From an archaeon (GTDB lineage: Archaea; Nanobdellota; Nanobdellia; Pacearchaeales; GW2011-AR1), in the NCBI GenBank assembly GCA_024278335.1, contig JAJRTJ010000003.1, positions 101,297 through 165,296 of the forward strand: a DNA stretch of 64,000 bases, in the 5' to 3' direction. A model generated the notes under the pieces. That model was given only the letters and a program-made list of their open reading frames with translations, made no database searches and was not told the DNA's origin. The translations under genes and the position numbers were made by a program. Each line of letters begins with the position of its first letter. The stretch's first letter is position 1. Below, one piece after another: positions 4,345 through 63,200 of the stretch.

Positions 4345-4520
4345 AGAAAGTTATAATTTTAATAAGAACAGATCAAAAAATCAAAAGAGAAAGAAGGAGA
4401 AACATGTTAGATAATTTAGAGAAAAGGTCTGAGTGGATTTCTGAGAAAGAAAAGGAAAAGCGGAGGAATAAAAATAAGGAAGTAATTGAGATTAAATCTG
4501 AAGCAATTAAAGTAAAATGA
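4341..4520 (+). CDS. Hypothetical basic 59-aa protein
   Basis: ATGA overlaps at both ends (4341-4344 and 4517-4520) link it to the flanking genes. Lys/Arg/Glu-rich. Below the track size cutoff. Confidence 0.3.
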   Translation: MKKVIILIRTDQKIKRERRRNMLDNLEKRSEWISEKEKEKRRNKNKEVIEIKSEAIKVK

Positions 4521-5876: not shown

Positions 5877-6872
5877 ATGAAAATTAATCAGAAACAAGCT
5901 AAACAGTTTCTTGAAAATATTCAATCAAAAGAAAAAGTTGCGATTGTTCATCATGATGATTTAGATGGATTTGCTTCAGGAATTTTAATCTTTGATTATT
6001 TAATTAAAAGAAATATTTCTCCAAAAACTTTTGTCGCCAAAATTGGACCTGAACCGTTTAAAAAACATAGTTTAAAGAATTCTGAAAAAATAATTATTGT
6101 TGATTTGGCTGATGATGTTATTGTAAAAGATTTGGTTGAAATAAAGGAAAAAGATATTTTAGTAATTGACCACCACCCGAAGAATTGTAATCTTCCTGAA
6201 AAAATTTTAGAATTTAATCCAGCCGAGGAAGGATATTTTCCCTGTTCAAGAGTATGTTATGAGTTGATTGGAGGAAAACAATGGCTAGCAGTTTTGGGAG
6301 TTTTAGCAGACAAGGGAGATAAATACTTAGAAAATGATTCTTTTTTGGCAAAGTTTTTTGAAAAAGAAAAAGTAAAGAAAGAAGAGTTTTCTGAAATAGT
6401 GAAATCATTAATTTGTTACTTAGTCTCCTTTTAAAAAAACCCCCAAAAAGCATTTGCTCCATTAAGGAGTTTAGAAGCCTATAAAGATTTACACTTATTG
6501 AAAAAATATTATGGGTCTGTTCAAGAAGAAGTTGATATTTTTAAAAAAGATTTTGAAGTTAATCGAGAGGGGGCAGGAAATGTTTTCTTTTATTATTTTG
6601 AACCAAAGCATAAAATTAAACGACCTCTTGCCCATGAAATTGGAGAAAAATACGTAGACAAAATTTTAATTTTTGTTTCTCCTTCTTTCTCTTTTGATTT
6701 TTTGAGTCTCACAGGAAGAAATGCTTTCAAGGGAATTAGTGCACTAGAAGTTTTACAAAGAGGAATTGGGAGCTTAAAAAATGCCAAAGTTGGGGGACAC
6801 CCAAGAGGATGCGGGGGAATCATTCAATTAAAGGATTTTTTAAAATTTAAACAAAATATTTTGAAAGCTTAA
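5877..6872 (+). pseudogene. DHH/DHHA1 phosphoesterase (RecJ/NrnA-like) interrupted by one in-frame TAA
   Basis: The 5877-6434 ORF carries the DHH motifs (HHDDLDG, VIDHHP). The 6498-6872 ORF carries a DHHA1-like GGHPRGCGG. Both are in the same frame, with a single TAA at 6432-6434 and open frame between them. Confidence 0.6.
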
Positions 6873-13473: not shown

Positions 13474-13498
13474 ATGAGGACGTCTCGGACTGGACTCG
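13474..13498 (-). repeat. 25-bp exact copy of the 3' end of tRNA-Asn plus 7 nt of its trailer
   Basis: ATGAGGACGTCTCGGACTGGACTCG at 13474-13498 equals 13544-13568. Confidence 0.9.
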
Positions 13499-13550
13499 GT
13501 ATGAAGTCTCGGGATTAAAATCCCTCGGCGAGCCACTCCGAAAATGAGGA

Positions 13551-13623
13551 CGTCTCGGACTGGACTCGAACCAGCGACCTAACGGTTAACAGCCGTTCGC
13601 TCTACCAACTGAGCTACCGAGAC
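13551..13623 (-). tRNA. tRNA-Asn (anticodon GUU)
   Basis: Hand-folded cloverleaf GTCTCGG/TA/GCTC-AGTTGGTA-GAGC/G/AACGG-CTGTTAA-CCGTT/AGGTC/GCTGG-TTCGAGT-CCAGT/CCGAGAC/G. No encoded CCA. T4 follows. Confidence 0.9.
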
Positions 13624-13631
13624 ATCTCTAT

Positions 13632-13687
13632 TCAGCTGGTTCAAGCCAGAATCTCGTAGAGATTTTCTGAGCATACCAACTGAGCTA
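13632..13687 (-). other. tRNA-Asn D-arm fragment (13673-13687) plus conserved 41-nt module (13632-13672) upstream of tRNA-Asn
   Basis: The minus strand reads TAGCTCAGTTGGTAT then GCTCAGAAAATCTCTACGAGATTCTGGCTTGAACCAGCTGA. The module is 38/42 identical to 54455-54496. Confidence 0.8.
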
Positions 13688-13710: not shown

Positions 13711-13718
13711 TTTTAAAA
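13711..13718 (-). promoter_or_regulatory. TATA-like octamer TTTTAAAA
   Basis: Lies 23 nt upstream of the tRNA fragment at 13687, the same spacing as TTTTAAAT to +1 of tRNA-Ile. Confidence 0.4.
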
Positions 13719-50744: not shown

Positions 50745-52717
<1,973 letters not shown>

Positions 52718-54332: not shown

Positions 54333-54392
54333 TTTTTTTATAGACGGCTTTTAGCCATAGAGGTGATGTCTCTTTTTTTCTTATAAGAAGTT

Positions 54393-54400
54393 TTTTAAAT
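54393..54400 (+). promoter_or_regulatory. TATA-like octamer TTTTAAAT
   Basis: Lies 30 nt upstream of the tRNA-Lys 5' fragment copy. There is no comparable element at promoter distance from the full tRNA-Lys. Confidence 0.35.
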
Positions 54401-54430
54401 TAGCTTTTTATTTTGGTTATATCCTTTACT

Positions 54431-54496
54431 GGCTCCGTAGCTCAGCCTGGTTAGGCTCAGAAAATCTCTAACGAGATTCTGGCTAAAACCATCTGA
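54431..54496 (+). other. Exact copy of tRNA-Lys positions 1-24 (54431-54454) plus conserved 42-nt module (54455-54496)
   Basis: GGCTCCGTAGCTCAGCCTGGTTAG equals 54510-54533. The module GCTCAGAAAATCTCTAACGAGATTCTGGCTAAAACCATCTGA matches 13632-13672 (minus) at 38/42. Confidence 0.85.
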
Positions 54497-54509
54497 CCTG
54501 CAAATATAT

Positions 54510-54584
54510 GGCTCCGTAGCTCAGCCTGGTTAGAGCACCAGACTCTTAATCTGGGTGTCGTGGGTTCAAATCCCATCGGGGCCA
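54510..54584 (+). tRNA. tRNA-Lys (anticodon CUU)
   Basis: GGCTCCG/TA/GCTC-AGCCTGGTTA-GAGC/A/CCAGA-CTCTTAA-TCTGG/GTGTC/GTGGG-TTCAAAT-CCCAT/CGGGGCC/A. No encoded CCA. Confidence 0.9.
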
Positions 54585-54598
54585 TTTGGATTTTTAAA

Positions 54599-54928
54599 AT
54601 GAGCATGAAATTTTGTCCAAGATGCAAAAAAATATTAATTCCTGAAAAAAAGGAAAAAGAATTTTTTATTAGTTGTAGATGCGGATTTTCTGAAAAAGTT
54701 GAAAAAGGCACTGAAATTCCTGAAAAATTTTCTTTAAATGAGAGGGGGAAAGGGTTTGTTAAGGGAGAAAATGAATTTGCAATTTATGAAAATGTCTGTA
54801 AAAAGTGCGGATATAATAAAGCTCAGATAATTGATATGGGAGTTTTTTATGGAGATGAAGATAATCTTATTTTATTGAAATGTGGAAGGTGCAATTTTTC
54901 TGAAAGAATTGGCAAGAAAGTTAGTTAA
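54599..54928 (+). CDS. TFS/RpoM-like double zinc-ribbon protein (divergent paralog)
   Basis: N-terminal CPRCKK...CRCG and C-terminal CKKCG...CGRCN ribbons, without the QTRSADE hairpin. Start moved downstream of tRNA-Lys. Confidence 0.55.
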   Translation: MSMKFCPRCKKILIPEKKEKEFFISCRCGFSEKVEKGTEIPEKFSLNERGKGFVKGENEFAIYENVCKKCGYNKAQIIDMGVFYGDEDNLILLKCGRCNFSERIGKKVS

Positions 54929-62140: not shown

Positions 62141-62182
62141 TTAATCTTTTATTTTTTTAAATTTAGCAATGAAGAATCCCTC
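62141..62182 (-). repeat. 42-bp copy (41/42) of the 3' end of the m5C methyltransferase gene
   Basis: TTAATCTTTTATTTTTTTAAATTTAGCAA[T/G]GAAGAATCCCTC at 62141-62182 and 62232-62273. The orphan copy encodes ..EGFFIAKFKKIKD* on the minus strand. Confidence 0.85.
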
Positions 62183-62231
62183 AACTCGGCACTCTTCATT
62201 GGGATTTGTATTTTGTTTTTATTTGCATTGT

Positions 62232-63200
62232 TTAATCTTTTATTTTTTTAAATTTAGCAAGGAAGAATCCCTCGGTATTATTGTCTTGAGGGTAAACTCT
62301 GCAGGAAAATTTTACTTCTTCAAGATATTTTTCTTCTTTCCACGAGGTTATGCCTTGTCTTGGATTTATTGGGAGCTTGATTTTTTCAATCTTGACTTTG
62401 TCTGTAAATTCTTTTAGAAAAAAATTTACAACTGCCTCATTTTCTTCAGGTGCATGAGTGCAAGTTGAATAAACTATTTCTCCGTTTGTTTTCAAAATAT
62501 CCCAGCTTGCTTTAAGCATTTGCTTTTGCAGTTTTGAAAGGGAAAAAATTGTTTTTGGGTTCCACATTAAATAAGTTTTATGGCTTGAACGCAGGGTTCC
62601 TTCTCCAGAGCAAGGAGCATCAATTAAAATTTTGTTAAATTTGAATTTTATTTTAGCAAGTCTTCTGCAAAGAGCAATGCCGTCTTTTTTTGTTATTATT
62701 GTATTTGTTACTCCGCATCTTTCTAAATTACTTGCAAGTATTTTTAATCTTGACATTGAAATTTCATTTGCAATAATTATTCCCGTATTTTTCATCATTG
62801 CAGCTATCTGGCTTGTTTTGCTTCCTGGAGCAGCACACAAATCAAGAACTTTTTCTTTTGGTAGGGGGTTTAAAGCAATTGGGGGAAGCATTGAAGCAAG
62901 CTCTTGAATATAATAATATCCTAAAAGATGTTCTAAAGATCTTCCGAGCTCGCCAGGTTCAAGTTCAGATTCAATAATCATTACTTTTGGATAATCTTTC
63001 CATGGCTGAATAATCTTCCAATTATATTTTTTTTCTAATTGTAATTTTAATTTTTTAGGAGAAATCTTTAAGGTATTGCATCTAATTGAACGCACTGGCT
63101 CTTGTTTAAGGATTTCTTTATATTTTTCAAAATCTTTTCCGAGAAGATTCTGCATTCTCTCTTTAAAAAGAAGCTTCATTTCTGGAATTTTTCTTTTCAT
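62232..63200 (-). CDS. NOL1/NOP2/Sun-family RNA cytosine-C5 methyltransferase
   Basis: DLCAAPGSKT, DAPCSGEG and YSTCTHAPEENE motifs. Confidence 0.85.
   Translation of the reverse strand: MKRKIPEMKLLFKERMQNLLGKDFEKYKEILKQEPVRSIRCNTLKISPKKLKLQLEKKYNWKIIQPWKDYPKVMIIESELEPGELGRSLEHLLGYYYIQELASMLPPIALNPLPKEKVLDLCAAPGSKTSQIAAMMKNTGIIIANEISMSRLKILASNLERCGVTNTIITKKDGIALCRRLAKIKFKFNKILIDAPCSGEGTLRSSHKTYLMWNPKTIFSLSKLQKQMLKASWDILKTNGEIVYSTCTHAPEENEAVVNFFLKEFTDKVKIEKIKLPINPRQGITSWKEEKYLEEVKFSCRVYPQDNNTEGFFLAKFKKIKD

What the first reader, a model, noticed from the sequence alone, without database searches (positions are those of the whole stretch)
54393..54584. tRNA-Lys is preceded by an exact copy of its own first 24 nt plus a 42-nt module shared with the tRNA-Asn locus
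Seen in the sequence:
- tRNA-Lys(CUU) at 54510-54584 is complete and canonical.
- 54431-54454 is a 24/24 copy of its positions 1-24. The identity begins at +1 of the tRNA (only the single base before +1 also matches) and ends one base into the 3' strand of the D-stem.
- Between the copies lies GCTCAGAAAATCTCTAACGAGATTCTGGCTAAAACCATCTGA (54455-54496). This recurs at 38/42 identity upstream of tRNA-Asn, 41 kb away, in the same orientation relative to that tRNA.
- The module holds a 6-bp hairpin AATCTC/GAGATT. Its loop differs between loci (TAAC vs TAC) while the stem is untouched.
- The only TATA-like octamer (TTTTAAAT, 54393-54400) lies upstream of the fragment copy. Nothing TATA-like sits at promoter distance from the full tRNA.

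Inference: fragment plus module are probably transcribed as a ~80-nt structured 5' leader of the tRNA. Alternatively they are the footprint of a small element that inserts into the D-loop region of tRNA genes while duplicating the cognate 5' part. A contiguous functional tRNA is present, so a split or permuted tRNA is not required. I know of no described archaeal tRNA leader or mini-element with this architecture.
Basis: partly seen in the sequence, partly recalled or inferred. Interest (0 to 1): 0.75.

Follow-up and report, generated by a model that had tools for sequence, protein, structure and literature searches.

The report
Hairpin insert duplicating tRNA 5' end
A short hairpin-forming insert, found in several tRNA genes and one RNase P RNA gene of tiny DPANN archaea, follows a duplicated copy of the gene's first bases and so most likely becomes a self-folding leader ahead of an intact tRNA; this miniature form of mobile-element insertion into tRNA genes does not seem to have been described.

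Summary
The 42-nt "module" belongs to a conserved hairpin family: core (G/A)C-U-CAG-AA-AAUCUC-loop-GAGAUU-CUG-G(C/U).

I found this core in Woesearchaeota/Nanoarchaeota MAGs and metagenomes. It lies upstream of tRNA-Lys, Asn, Glu, Cys and Thr, with a diverged variant at Gln, and inside one RNase P RNA gene.

The layout at the RNA-gene loci is [X1 = copy of the gene's 5' segment][core][X' = imperfect antisense of X][spacer][X2 = intact gene]. X1, core and X' fold into one long hairpin.

A TATA-like box lies about 30 nt upstream of X1 in 15 of 16 filled loci, and upstream of the real tRNA start in none. Fragment and module are therefore most likely a transcribed 5' leader.

Syntenic loci in relatives are empty (Lys: L032, L022, L054; Asn: L058, L059, L060) or hold a different insert (L033). 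The insertions are therefore gained or lost.

A mirror-image duplication of tRNA 3' ends is also common, including at tRNA-Asn and tRNA-Ile in this window.

It is not an intron, a split or permuted tRNA, a hammerhead or any Rfam family. The closest known kind is the att-type partial tRNA duplication left by integrating elements, but here the insert is only 50-170 nt and has no gene.

How it inserts, and whether the core serves the host, remain unknown.

The parts
54393..54400 (+). TATA-like box TTTTAAAT, the presumed promoter of the whole unit. It is 31-38 nt upstream of the fragment copy, slightly further than the -30/-31 seen elsewhere.
   Evidence: A box at this distance from X1 occurs in 15/16 filled loci, and from X2 in 0/16.
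54431..54454 (+). X1: exact copy of tRNA-Lys linear positions 1-24 (Sprinzl 1-22). The identity includes T at 54430.
   Evidence: 25-nt exact direct repeat, period 79.
54455..54483 (+). Conserved core hairpin GC-U-CAG-AA-AAUCUC-UAAC-GAGAUU-CUG-GC.
   Evidence: 98.2% of cells paired. The outer pair covaries (GC in 9, AU in 5).
54484..54501 (+). X': imperfect antisense of X1 positions 7-24, TAAAACCATCTGACCTGC. It closes the long leader hairpin.
54502..54509 (+). Spacer AAATATAT, unpaired, immediately 5' of the predicted RNase P site.
54510..54584 (+). Intact tRNA-Lys(CUU). Its first 24 nt are X2.
13711..13718 (-). TATA-like box TTTTAAAA of the Asn unit, about 31 nt upstream of X1.
   Evidence: It is homologous to the promoter of the empty L060 locus.
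13674..13687 (-). X1 of the Asn locus: TAGCTCAGTTGGTA, a copy of tRNA-Asn positions 8-21. The 7-nt acceptor strand has been lost relative to L060.
13645..13672 (-). Core hairpin, Asn copy (loop TAC).
13632..13644 (-). X' of the Asn locus, TTGAACCAGCTGA. Its AACCAGCTGA forms 9 contiguous pairs with the Asn-specific UCAGUUGGU.
13624..13631 (-). Spacer ATAGAGAT.
13551..13623 (-). Intact tRNA-Asn(GUU).
13474..13568 (-). Mirror-image 3' arrangement at tRNA-Asn. Y1 (13544-13568) is CGAGTCCAGTCCGAGACGTCCTCAT, running from the T loop to 7 nt beyond the tRNA. A 45-nt insert follows, which starts with an antisense of Y. Then comes Y2 (13474-13498).
   Evidence: Absent from the closest relative L058.

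Best explanation
A small insertion colonised the transcribed 5' edge of the tRNA gene and is tolerated because it insulates itself.

The inserted unit is a hairpin core plus an arm (X') that is antisense to the host gene's 5' segment. It arrived together with a direct duplication of that segment (X).

The original promoter now drives one transcript: X1-core-X'-spacer-tRNA. During transcription X' pairs with the redundant copy X1, and the conserved core caps the resulting helix. The downstream full-length tRNA can then fold on its own, and RNase P cuts between 54509 and 54510 and discards the roughly 80-nt leader.

Inside RNase P RNA the same arrangement leaves a peripheral extra hairpin, whichever copy of X takes part in the native fold.

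Shown: the anatomy, its recurrence in many genomes and genes, promoter-motif placement, filled versus empty orthologous sites, and the absence of a splice motif.

Inferred: transcription start, RNase P processing, the insulating role of X', and mobility of the core+X' unit. Movement from the Lys-type locus to Asn within this genome is one example. The insertion enzymology is not known.
For: Family and architecture.
- Exact-pattern scans recovered 7 archaeal loci in GTDB genomes and 9 in metagenomes (some duplicates of each other). All except L018 lie upstream of or inside an RNA gene, in the same orientation as the gene, with a cognate duplicated segment of 5-30 nt.
- One copy is inside an RNase P RNA: Rfam RF00373, E = 9e-20, full-length model, with a 57-nt insert.

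Hairpin.
- X1-core-X' folds into one hairpin at every locus.
- Leader z-scores are -4.1 and -3.7.
- Cognate flank duplexes average -12.4 kcal/mol against -6.0 for flanks swapped between tRNA families.
- The core is 98.2% paired, with GC/AU covariation at the outer pair.
- Loop positions vary freely while stems recur.

Leader.
- A TATA-like box lies upstream of X1 in 15/16 loci and upstream of X2 in 0/16. Empty loci have it at -30/-31.
- Whole-precursor folds give leader hairpin plus cloverleaf in 5 of 7 cases.

Gain and loss.
- The Lys loci are syntenic.
- Empty Lys sites: L032, L022, L054. Filled by another insert: L033, with flanks that align closely with L032.
- Asn sites are empty in L058 (79% aa identity), L059 and L060. 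The window's promoter region aligns with L060's.
- Lys and Asn modules in this genome are 38/42 identical, while their spacers and X are locus-specific.

Generality.
- 12 of 26 surveyed tRNAs carry a 5' duplication of at least 12 nt, including 4 of 13 not ascertained through the core. Wrong-side controls give at most 10 nt.
- Unrelated inserts (L004 Met, L010 Ile, L033 Lys) have the same X1-hairpin-X' layout.
Against: - There are no transcript data, so the transcription start and the RNase P cut are inferred from motifs.
- No RNase P RNA was found in this 64-kb window. It was found only in a related MAG.
- Hairpin stability is the same on both strands (sense more stable in 6 of 17, Wilcoxon p = 0.65). 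The G.U pairs therefore do not prove selection at the RNA level.
- In the Lys precursor the minimum-energy fold uses X1, not X2, for the acceptor stem. Insulation is incomplete here.
- Copy number is low: 1-3 exact copies per genome, and only one in a 623-kb contig. That is unlike a proliferating element.
- The core stems are invariant in at least 13 distinct copies, whose loops differ and, among the four aligned Lys loci, whose spacers have diverged. This hints at a sequence-specific function that the "merely tolerated" reading does not explain. The copies were, however, ascertained with an exact pattern.
- X1 equals X2 exactly in four diverged Lys lineages. This needs gene conversion, repeated re-insertion or selection.
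- One copy (L018) lies in the opposite orientation with no duplication.
Confidence: 0.55

Rival explanations
1. The leader is a host-beneficial regulatory device. The invariant core is the binding site of a specific protein or RNA. X' can pair with either X1 (tRNA or RNase P RNA free to fold) or X2 (native fold blocked). The leader would then act as a conformational switch or timer controlling maturation of selected stable RNAs.
For: - Core stems are identical in at least 13 distinct copies, whose loops differ and, among the four aligned Lys loci, whose spacers have diverged.
- The association with the same tRNA species is stable across MAGs: Cys in 4, Lys in 4, Glu in 3.
- Copy number is low.
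- The X1 = X2 identity makes the two alternative helices equal in energy. The MFE of the Lys precursor does use X1.
- Leader structures that gate RNase P cleavage work in synthetic systems (abstract of PMC8925977).
Against: - Close relatives do without it. Orthologous Lys and Asn loci are empty.
- Unrelated inserts adopt the same layout.
- X1 decays at several loci: Asn lost its acceptor strand, Thr keeps 17/22, and L010 has a 1-nt deletion. An exact X1 = X2 is therefore not required.
- No binding partner is known.
- The apparent invariance of the core is inflated by exact-pattern ascertainment.
Confidence: 0.2
2. The duplications are att scars at the DNA level. An integrase-type element carrying a copy of the tRNA end (attP) integrated into the tRNA gene, restoring it. 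Most of the element was later lost, or it is a miniature element mobilised in trans. The core would be an att-proximal arm, and any RNA folding would be incidental.
For: - The layout (partial tRNA direct repeat, intact tRNA restored, empty sites in relatives) is that of archaeal integration sites.
- The closest precedent is a tRNA-Thr 5' fragment (positions 1-27), then a 1.8-kb recombinase element, then an intact tRNA (PMC3293823).
- The 3' duplications start in the T loop, mostly at C56, and run past the tRNA end, like classical tRNA att sites.
- Hairpin energy is symmetric between strands.
Against: - All 16 filled 5' sites hold only 50-170 nt, with no ORF or integrase remnant.
- Random deletion would not leave, each time, a hairpin whose arm is antisense to the local repeat.
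- The same core serves different repeats, including a non-tRNA site.
- A viral-contig scan found no copy.
- My repeat search only looked within 300 nt, so kb-size elements were not excluded elsewhere.
Confidence: 0.15
3. The segment from the core through X2 is an intron or alternative exon. The mature tRNA would be made by joining X1 to the body of the gene and removing one 79-nt repeat unit.
For: Removing exactly one repeat unit would yield the same mature sequence. The genome does use BHB introns: tRNA-Ile at 30771-30880 has a 35-nt intron.
Against: - Because X1 = X2, the 4-bp central BHB helix would have to be formed by the same sequence on both strands.
- The scan found no candidate of period 79 (Lys) or 71 (Asn) with more than 1+1 flanking pairs. 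The control intron scored 5+2.
- At Asn, X1 lacks positions 1-7, so it cannot be the 5' exon.
Confidence: 0.02

Closest known systems
Integrase-mediated integration into archaeal tRNA genes (SSV1 and pNOB8 types), and the Caldiarchaeum tRNA-Thr locus of Sugahara et al. 2012 (PMC3293823)
   Same: A direct repeat of the 5' (or 3') part of a tRNA gene flanks inserted DNA. An intact tRNA is kept. The resident promoter stays with the upstream fragment. Relatives have empty sites. The fragment length (1-27 there, 1-22 here) is similar.
   Different: Known elements are kb-sized and encode a recombinase. Here the insert is 50-170 nt with no gene. It carries an arm antisense to the repeat, forms a hairpin with it, recurs with one conserved core at different genes, and also occurs inside an RNase P RNA gene.
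Archaeal BHB introns and their transposition between tRNA sites
   Same: Short related sequences occur at non-canonical positions of different tRNA genes. Each insert contains a stretch complementary to the upstream exon.
   Different: There is no bulge-helix-bulge motif. The exon sequence is duplicated. An uninterrupted gene copy is present.
REP/MITE-like hairpin repeats, and repetitive hairpin-forming elements in mitochondrial genomes (PMC2800124; title and abstract only, seen)
   Same: A small imperfect palindrome with bulges, no coding capacity, found in or next to RNA genes. A second such module (GGGGCAC..CCCCTTACACTAACCCC) is shared by L003 and L004.
   Different: Copy number is very low. 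Orientation is co-directional with the host gene in 16 of 17 cases. The flanking duplication is long, variable and anchored at the gene start, and an antisense arm is tailored to the target.
Split tRNA 5' halves of Nanoarchaeum equitans
   Same: Same phylum. A tRNA 5' fragment with its own promoter is followed by a complementary extension. Lys(CUU) and Glu are among the tRNAs involved in both cases (split set as cited).
   Different: Here the extension pairs with the fragment itself, not with the leader of a 3' half. A complete tRNA follows, so no trans-splicing is needed.

Membership tests
Pre-tRNA 5' leader removed by RNase P | Promoter upstream of the leader and none at the mature 5' end | tested here: met
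   A TATA-like hexamer starts between -38 and -24 of X1 in 15/16 loci, and of X2 in 0/16. Motif evidence only.
Pre-tRNA 5' leader removed by RNase P | RNase P present in the organism | tested here: inconclusive
   No RNase P RNA in the 64-kb window. An archaeal RNase P RNA is present in the related MAG L007 (72.2 bits, E = 9e-20).
Pre-tRNA 5' leader removed by RNase P | Transcript starting at the leader and cleaved at +1 | not testable with these tools
   No RNA data are available.
Integrated element with att duplication in a tRNA gene | Direct repeat of a terminal tRNA segment flanking the insert, with an intact tRNA restored | tested here: met
   25-nt repeat, period 79. tRNA scores 69.9 bits.
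Integrated element with att duplication in a tRNA gene | Empty site in relatives | tested here: met
   Lys: L032, L022, L054. Asn: L058, L059, L060.
Integrated element with att duplication in a tRNA gene | Element carries, or is a remnant of, an integrase-bearing replicon | tested here: not met
   The insert is 55 nt with no ORF. There were 0 hits in viral contigs. No integrase fragment lies between the repeats.
Archaeal BHB intron | Bulge-helix-bulge motif at both splice sites | tested here: not met
   no candidate of the right period with flanking helices. The control intron of tRNA-Ile was recovered.
Split or permuted tRNA | No contiguous gene; halves joined through complementary flanks | tested here: not met
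   A contiguous canonical tRNA is present. X' pairs with X1 itself.
MITE / transposon with target-site duplication | Fixed-length duplication and terminal inverted repeats at the element ends | tested here: not met
   Repeat lengths range from 5 to 30 nt. The right end of the insert (the spacer) is not an inverted copy of the left end.
MITE / transposon with target-site duplication | Many copies per genome | tested here: not met
   One exact copy in a 623-kb contig and two in this window. The covariance model adds no further copies in 440 kb.
Hammerhead ribozyme | Conserved core CUGANGA ... GAAA ... UH | tested here: not met
   GAA-stem-UUC fits. The CUGA that follows is CUGACCU or CUGAAUA (G8 missing in both, A9 missing in the Lys copy) and is simply the complement of the D-arm UCAG (sequence). 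No Rfam hit.
Any Rfam family | Covariance-model match | tested here: not met
   The E-value scan of 54380-54600 returns only the tRNA and chance hits.
K-turn / C/D-box RNA | Tandem sheared G.A pairs next to a 3-nt bulge; C box RUGAUGA | tested here: not met
   By inspection of the core: bulges are U and AA on one strand, with no G.A pairs and no C box.
REP/RAYT or IS200/IS605-type hairpin element | Associated HUH transposase gene and a conserved flanking tetranucleotide | not tested
   The window's proteins were not screened. There is no fixed tetranucleotide next to the core.

The most novel reading that the evidence does not exclude
The 42-nt module may be a miniature, non-coding mobile unit that finds its targets by base pairing. 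Its 3' arm (X') would act as a guide for the 5' segment of highly expressed stable-RNA genes. Insertion would copy that segment from the transcript start up to an exposed loop, which suggests an RNA- or single-strand-templated step. The result is a promoter-bearing 5' fragment beside an intact gene, which could be the missing intermediate on the way to the split tRNA genes of Nanoarchaeota.
Probability: 0.15. Interest if true: 0.9.

Novelty: new variant of a known kind. Interest (0 to 1): 0.65.

Why it matters
Partial tRNA duplications are the classic footprint of integrating viruses and plasmids. Here the same footprint is made by inserts of only 50-170 nt that carry an arm antisense to the duplicated piece. 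It affects a large share of the tRNA genes surveyed in Woese-/Pacearchaeal relatives: 12 of 26 at the 5' side and about 9 of 26 at the 3' side, in a sample partly selected for the core.

If the reading holds, three things follow:
- It shows a way in which essential structured-RNA genes, including RNase P RNA, can absorb insertions without losing function.
- It predicts long structured pre-tRNA leaders in a lineage whose ancestral tRNA promoters sit at leaderless distance.
- It provides dated filled and empty sites in the very phylum where split tRNA genes were discovered. Models of tRNA gene disruption could then be tested by comparative genomics and metatranscriptomics.

In practice, such fragments can confuse tRNA and RNase P RNA annotation. 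The L007 RNase P RNA falls below the Rfam gathering score (72.2 against 84 bits), probably because of the insert.

Tried and rejected
- Hammerhead reading. GAA / stem III / UUC fit, but the CUGANGA box fails (G8 missing in both copies, A9 in the Lys copy).
- K-turn, C/D box and H/ACA readings. The motifs are absent; the "CUGA" is only the complement of the D-arm UCAG.
- BHB intron, and 5' maturation by the splicing endonuclease. No motif was found.
- G.U asymmetry as proof of RNA-level selection. Sense and antisense hairpins are equally stable, so I dropped that argument.
- RNAalifold on a sequence alignment of leaders. It recovers only the core, because the X1/X' arms differ by indels. I replaced it with the flank-swap test.
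- Viral contigs: 0 hits.
- Bacterial hits of the pattern (L001, L002, L005, L009, L020) are coding-sequence chance matches.
- Looking up the window's own proteins to name the source contig failed. The identical KH protein is on a 243,915-nt NCBI contig with no name.
- BLAST of the other inserts against all loci. They are mostly unique, apart from a second module shared by L003 and L004.
- Tandem-duplication origin. Rejected because the sequence upstream of X1 is not repeated upstream of X2.
- Plain homologous conversion from the Lys locus to the Asn locus. Rejected because X1, the spacer and X2 at Asn are Asn-specific.
- A possible derivation of the core from the tRNA-Lys anticodon arm (CAGA..CUCUAA..UCUGG) is only a visual resemblance and was not tested.

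Full report
**1. The observation**

The window holds three tRNA genes:
- Asn(GUU) at 13551-13623 (minus strand)
- an intron-containing Ile(GAU) at 30771-30880 (minus strand)
- Lys(CUU) at 54510-54584 (plus strand)

A 25-nt exact direct repeat starts at 54430 and at 54509. The reported 24-nt copy of the tRNA-Lys 5' end, plus the base before +1, is therefore real.

The 42-nt module at 54455-54496 recurs upstream of tRNA-Asn in the same relative orientation, with 38 of 42 columns identical. The core pattern occurs twice in the window against none expected.

- The Asn locus also carries a fragment copy (TAGCTCAGTTGGTA, tRNA positions 8-21, at 13674-13687).
- The 3' third of the module is an imperfect antisense of the fragment. 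Fragment and module therefore fold into one long hairpin, with z = -4.1 for Lys and -3.7 for Asn.

**2. A family, not a curiosity**

I scanned public genomes and metagenomes with CAGAAAATCTC-N3-6-GAGATTCTGG. The hits were, apart from coding-sequence chance matches in bacteria, only Woesearchaeota/Nanoarchaeia sequences. Viral contigs gave nothing.

The contexts were:
- tRNA-Lys(CUU) in four lineages
- tRNA-Cys in four
- tRNA-Glu in three
- tRNA-Thr and tRNA-Asn in one each
- a compensated variant at a tRNA-Gln
- one copy inside an archaeal RNase P RNA gene, with a full-length Rfam match (E = 9e-20) and the insert at helix P8

Except for L018, every copy has the same layout: X1 (a copy of the host gene's 5' segment, 5-30 nt), the core, X' (antisense of X), a spacer of 0-34 nt, then the intact gene beginning with X2.

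The core is a hairpin with a bulged U and a bulged AA. It is 98.2% paired across 14 sequences, and its outer pair switches between G-C (9) and A-U (5). The second and third loop positions vary freely, while the first is always U.

Flanks pair with their own partner far better than with flanks from other tRNA families: -12.4 against -6.0 kcal/mol.

A covariance model found no further copies in about 440 kb of related DNA. Copy number is therefore low.

**3. Leader**

In 15 of 16 filled loci a TATA-like hexamer starts 24-38 nt upstream of X1. None lies at that distance from X2. Uninterrupted relatives have the same box at -30/-31 from tRNA +1.

The ancestral promoter therefore now sits in front of the fragment, and the full tRNA has no promoter of its own. 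The simplest reading is a single transcript whose first 50-170 nt form a structured leader.

Whole-precursor folds give leader hairpin plus cloverleaf in five of seven cases. For the window's Lys gene the minimum-energy fold pairs the acceptor 3' strand with X1, whose first six bases are not covered by X'. Insulation is incomplete there.

**4. Insertion**

The Lys loci are syntenic: winged-helix gene, tRNA-Lys, TFS, signal peptidase, CDC48. I recovered further orthologous loci through the neighbouring proteins:
- L032, L022 and L054 have an uninterrupted tRNA-Lys.
- L033 encodes the same winged-helix protein as L032, and its flanks align closely with L032's. It carries an unrelated 154-nt insert flanked by ATGGCTCTGTAGCT, plus a new 18-nt intron.
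- For Asn, the closest relative L058 (79% identity in the KH protein) is empty on both sides, as is L059. L060 is empty at the 5' side.
- The window's promoter region aligns with that of L060. This shows that X1 of Asn later lost its seven acceptor bases.

The Asn module is thus a lineage-specific gain. It is nearly identical to the Lys module of the same genome, whereas X, the spacer and some bases of X' are Asn-specific. The unit that moved is therefore core plus X', not a block copied by simple homologous conversion.

Filled and empty lineages are about equally distant from the window. The distribution is patchy.

**5. A wider phenomenon**

Of 26 tRNA genes in these loci, 12 have a 5' duplication of at least 12 nt. 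Four of these are among the 13 genes not selected through the core. About nine have a 3' duplication. Wrong-side controls never exceed 10 nt.

Unrelated 5' inserts (L004 Met, L010 Ile, L033 Lys) again begin with X1-hairpin-X'.

X starts between -6 and +2 in most cases, and at position 8 in tRNA-Asn and in L010 tRNA-Ile. It ends at 5, 10, 12, 14-15 or 21-22, the last two classes being the borders of the D loop.

The 3' repeats start mostly at C56 in the T loop and extend 1-20 nt into the trailer. Here the antisense copy follows the tRNA. In this window tRNA-Asn and tRNA-Ile both show it.

**6. What it is not**

- No Rfam family matches.
- A BHB scan that recovers the genuine tRNA-Ile intron finds nothing able to remove one repeat unit. 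Because X1 = X2, the central helix would need a palindrome.
- The hammerhead-like GAA-stem-UUC lacks the CUGANGA box.
- There is no K-turn and no C/D box.
- A contiguous tRNA makes split or permuted readings unnecessary.

**7. What remains open**

- Hairpin energy is the same on both strands, so the G.U pairs do not prove selection on the RNA.
- X1 equals X2 exactly in four diverged Lys lineages, with five tRNA positions co-varying. At Asn, Thr and L010 the copy has started to decay. Gene conversion, re-insertion or selection could each account for this.
- The stems of the core are identical wherever found, although loops differ and, among the aligned Lys loci, spacers have diverged. That suggests sequence-specific recognition. 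However, the copies were ascertained with an exact pattern.
- The generating mechanism is unknown. Two features suggest a step that acts on folded single strands or on transcripts: the repeats are usually anchored at the start of the transcribed gene, and the junctions cluster at exposed loops. This is inference only.

**8. Comparison and verdict**

The nearest described case is the integration model for disrupted tRNA genes. That model involves a 5' fragment (positions 1-27), a 1.8-kb recombinase-encoding element and an intact tRNA-Thr in Caldiarchaeum, and att repeats of tRNA ends in general (PMC3293823). Partial tRNA fragments have also been noted in Crenarchaeota (PMC3218864).

The present structure shares the repeat, the restored gene and the empty sites. 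It fails the defining feature of a recombinase-bearing element, and it adds an antisense arm, a conserved cap and a non-tRNA target.

I file it as a new variant of a known kind.

Noticed in passing
window 13474-13568 (minus strand): tRNA-Asn also has a 3' duplication. The 25-nt CGAGTCCAGTCCGAGACGTCCTCAT occurs twice, 70 nt apart start to start. The 45-nt insert begins with an antisense of the T arm. It is absent in the closest relative L058. L060 has a different insert at the same starting base (C56).
   Followed up: partly
window 30634-30796 (minus strand): tRNA-Ile(GAU) carries a 35-nt canonical intron and was missed by default ARAGORN. It is followed by an 89-nt insert and a second copy of its last 18 nt plus the T-rich trailer (33 nt exact, 41 nt at 93%). 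The downstream copy has a CCCAAAT T loop.
   Followed up: partly
window 62141-62273: A 42-nt direct repeat (98% identical, 91 nt apart) that includes a TATA-like TTTTTAAATTT box. The first copy is followed by a short hairpin (AATGAAGA...TCTTCATT). It could be the same kind of duplication at another transcription unit.
   Followed up: no
window 4373-4404 and 6674-6705: A perfect 32-nt inverted repeat brackets 2.3 kb containing two ORFs: a 441-aa amidase-like ORF by eye, and a 185-aa ORF. It may be an invertible or mobile segment.
   Followed up: no
L007 685-972 (same as L016): An archaeal RNase P RNA scores 72.2 bits, below the Rfam gathering score of 84, probably because of the 57-nt insert (core plus duplicated AAAAAGTTGTCAGG) at helix P8. 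Such genes would be missed by routine annotation.
   Followed up: partly
L033 7881-8143 compared with L032 10349-10425: These are two close relatives: they share an identical neighbouring protein and their flanks align closely. They differ by a 154-nt leader insert with internal repeats and by a new 18-nt intron in the anticodon loop of tRNA-Lys. This is a recent pair of gains, or of losses.
   Followed up: partly
L004 7490-7562; L003 6480-6640: A second small module (GGGGCAC..CCCCTTACACTAACCCC) is shared between the leader insert of a tRNA-Met in one MAG and an intergenic region (two tandem copies) in another. These genomes therefore hold several families of short hairpin repeats.
   Followed up: partly
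L018 104-143: One copy of the core lies in the opposite orientation, 41 nt downstream of a tRNA(CAT). It has only GCTA on both sides and no long duplication. This is an exception to the orientation rule. The contig is too short to judge further.
   Followed up: partly
window 51101-52717: A 538-aa ORF looks like a bacterial-type GroEL chaperonin, judged by eye from its N-terminus, in an otherwise archaeal gene context. It was not checked with any tool.
   Followed up: no
L022 10401-10522: The orthologous tRNA-Lys is inverted relative to the window and empty at its 5' side. It has an 18-nt 3' duplication (CAGGGCCATAAATTTTTA, 54 nt apart).
   Followed up: partly
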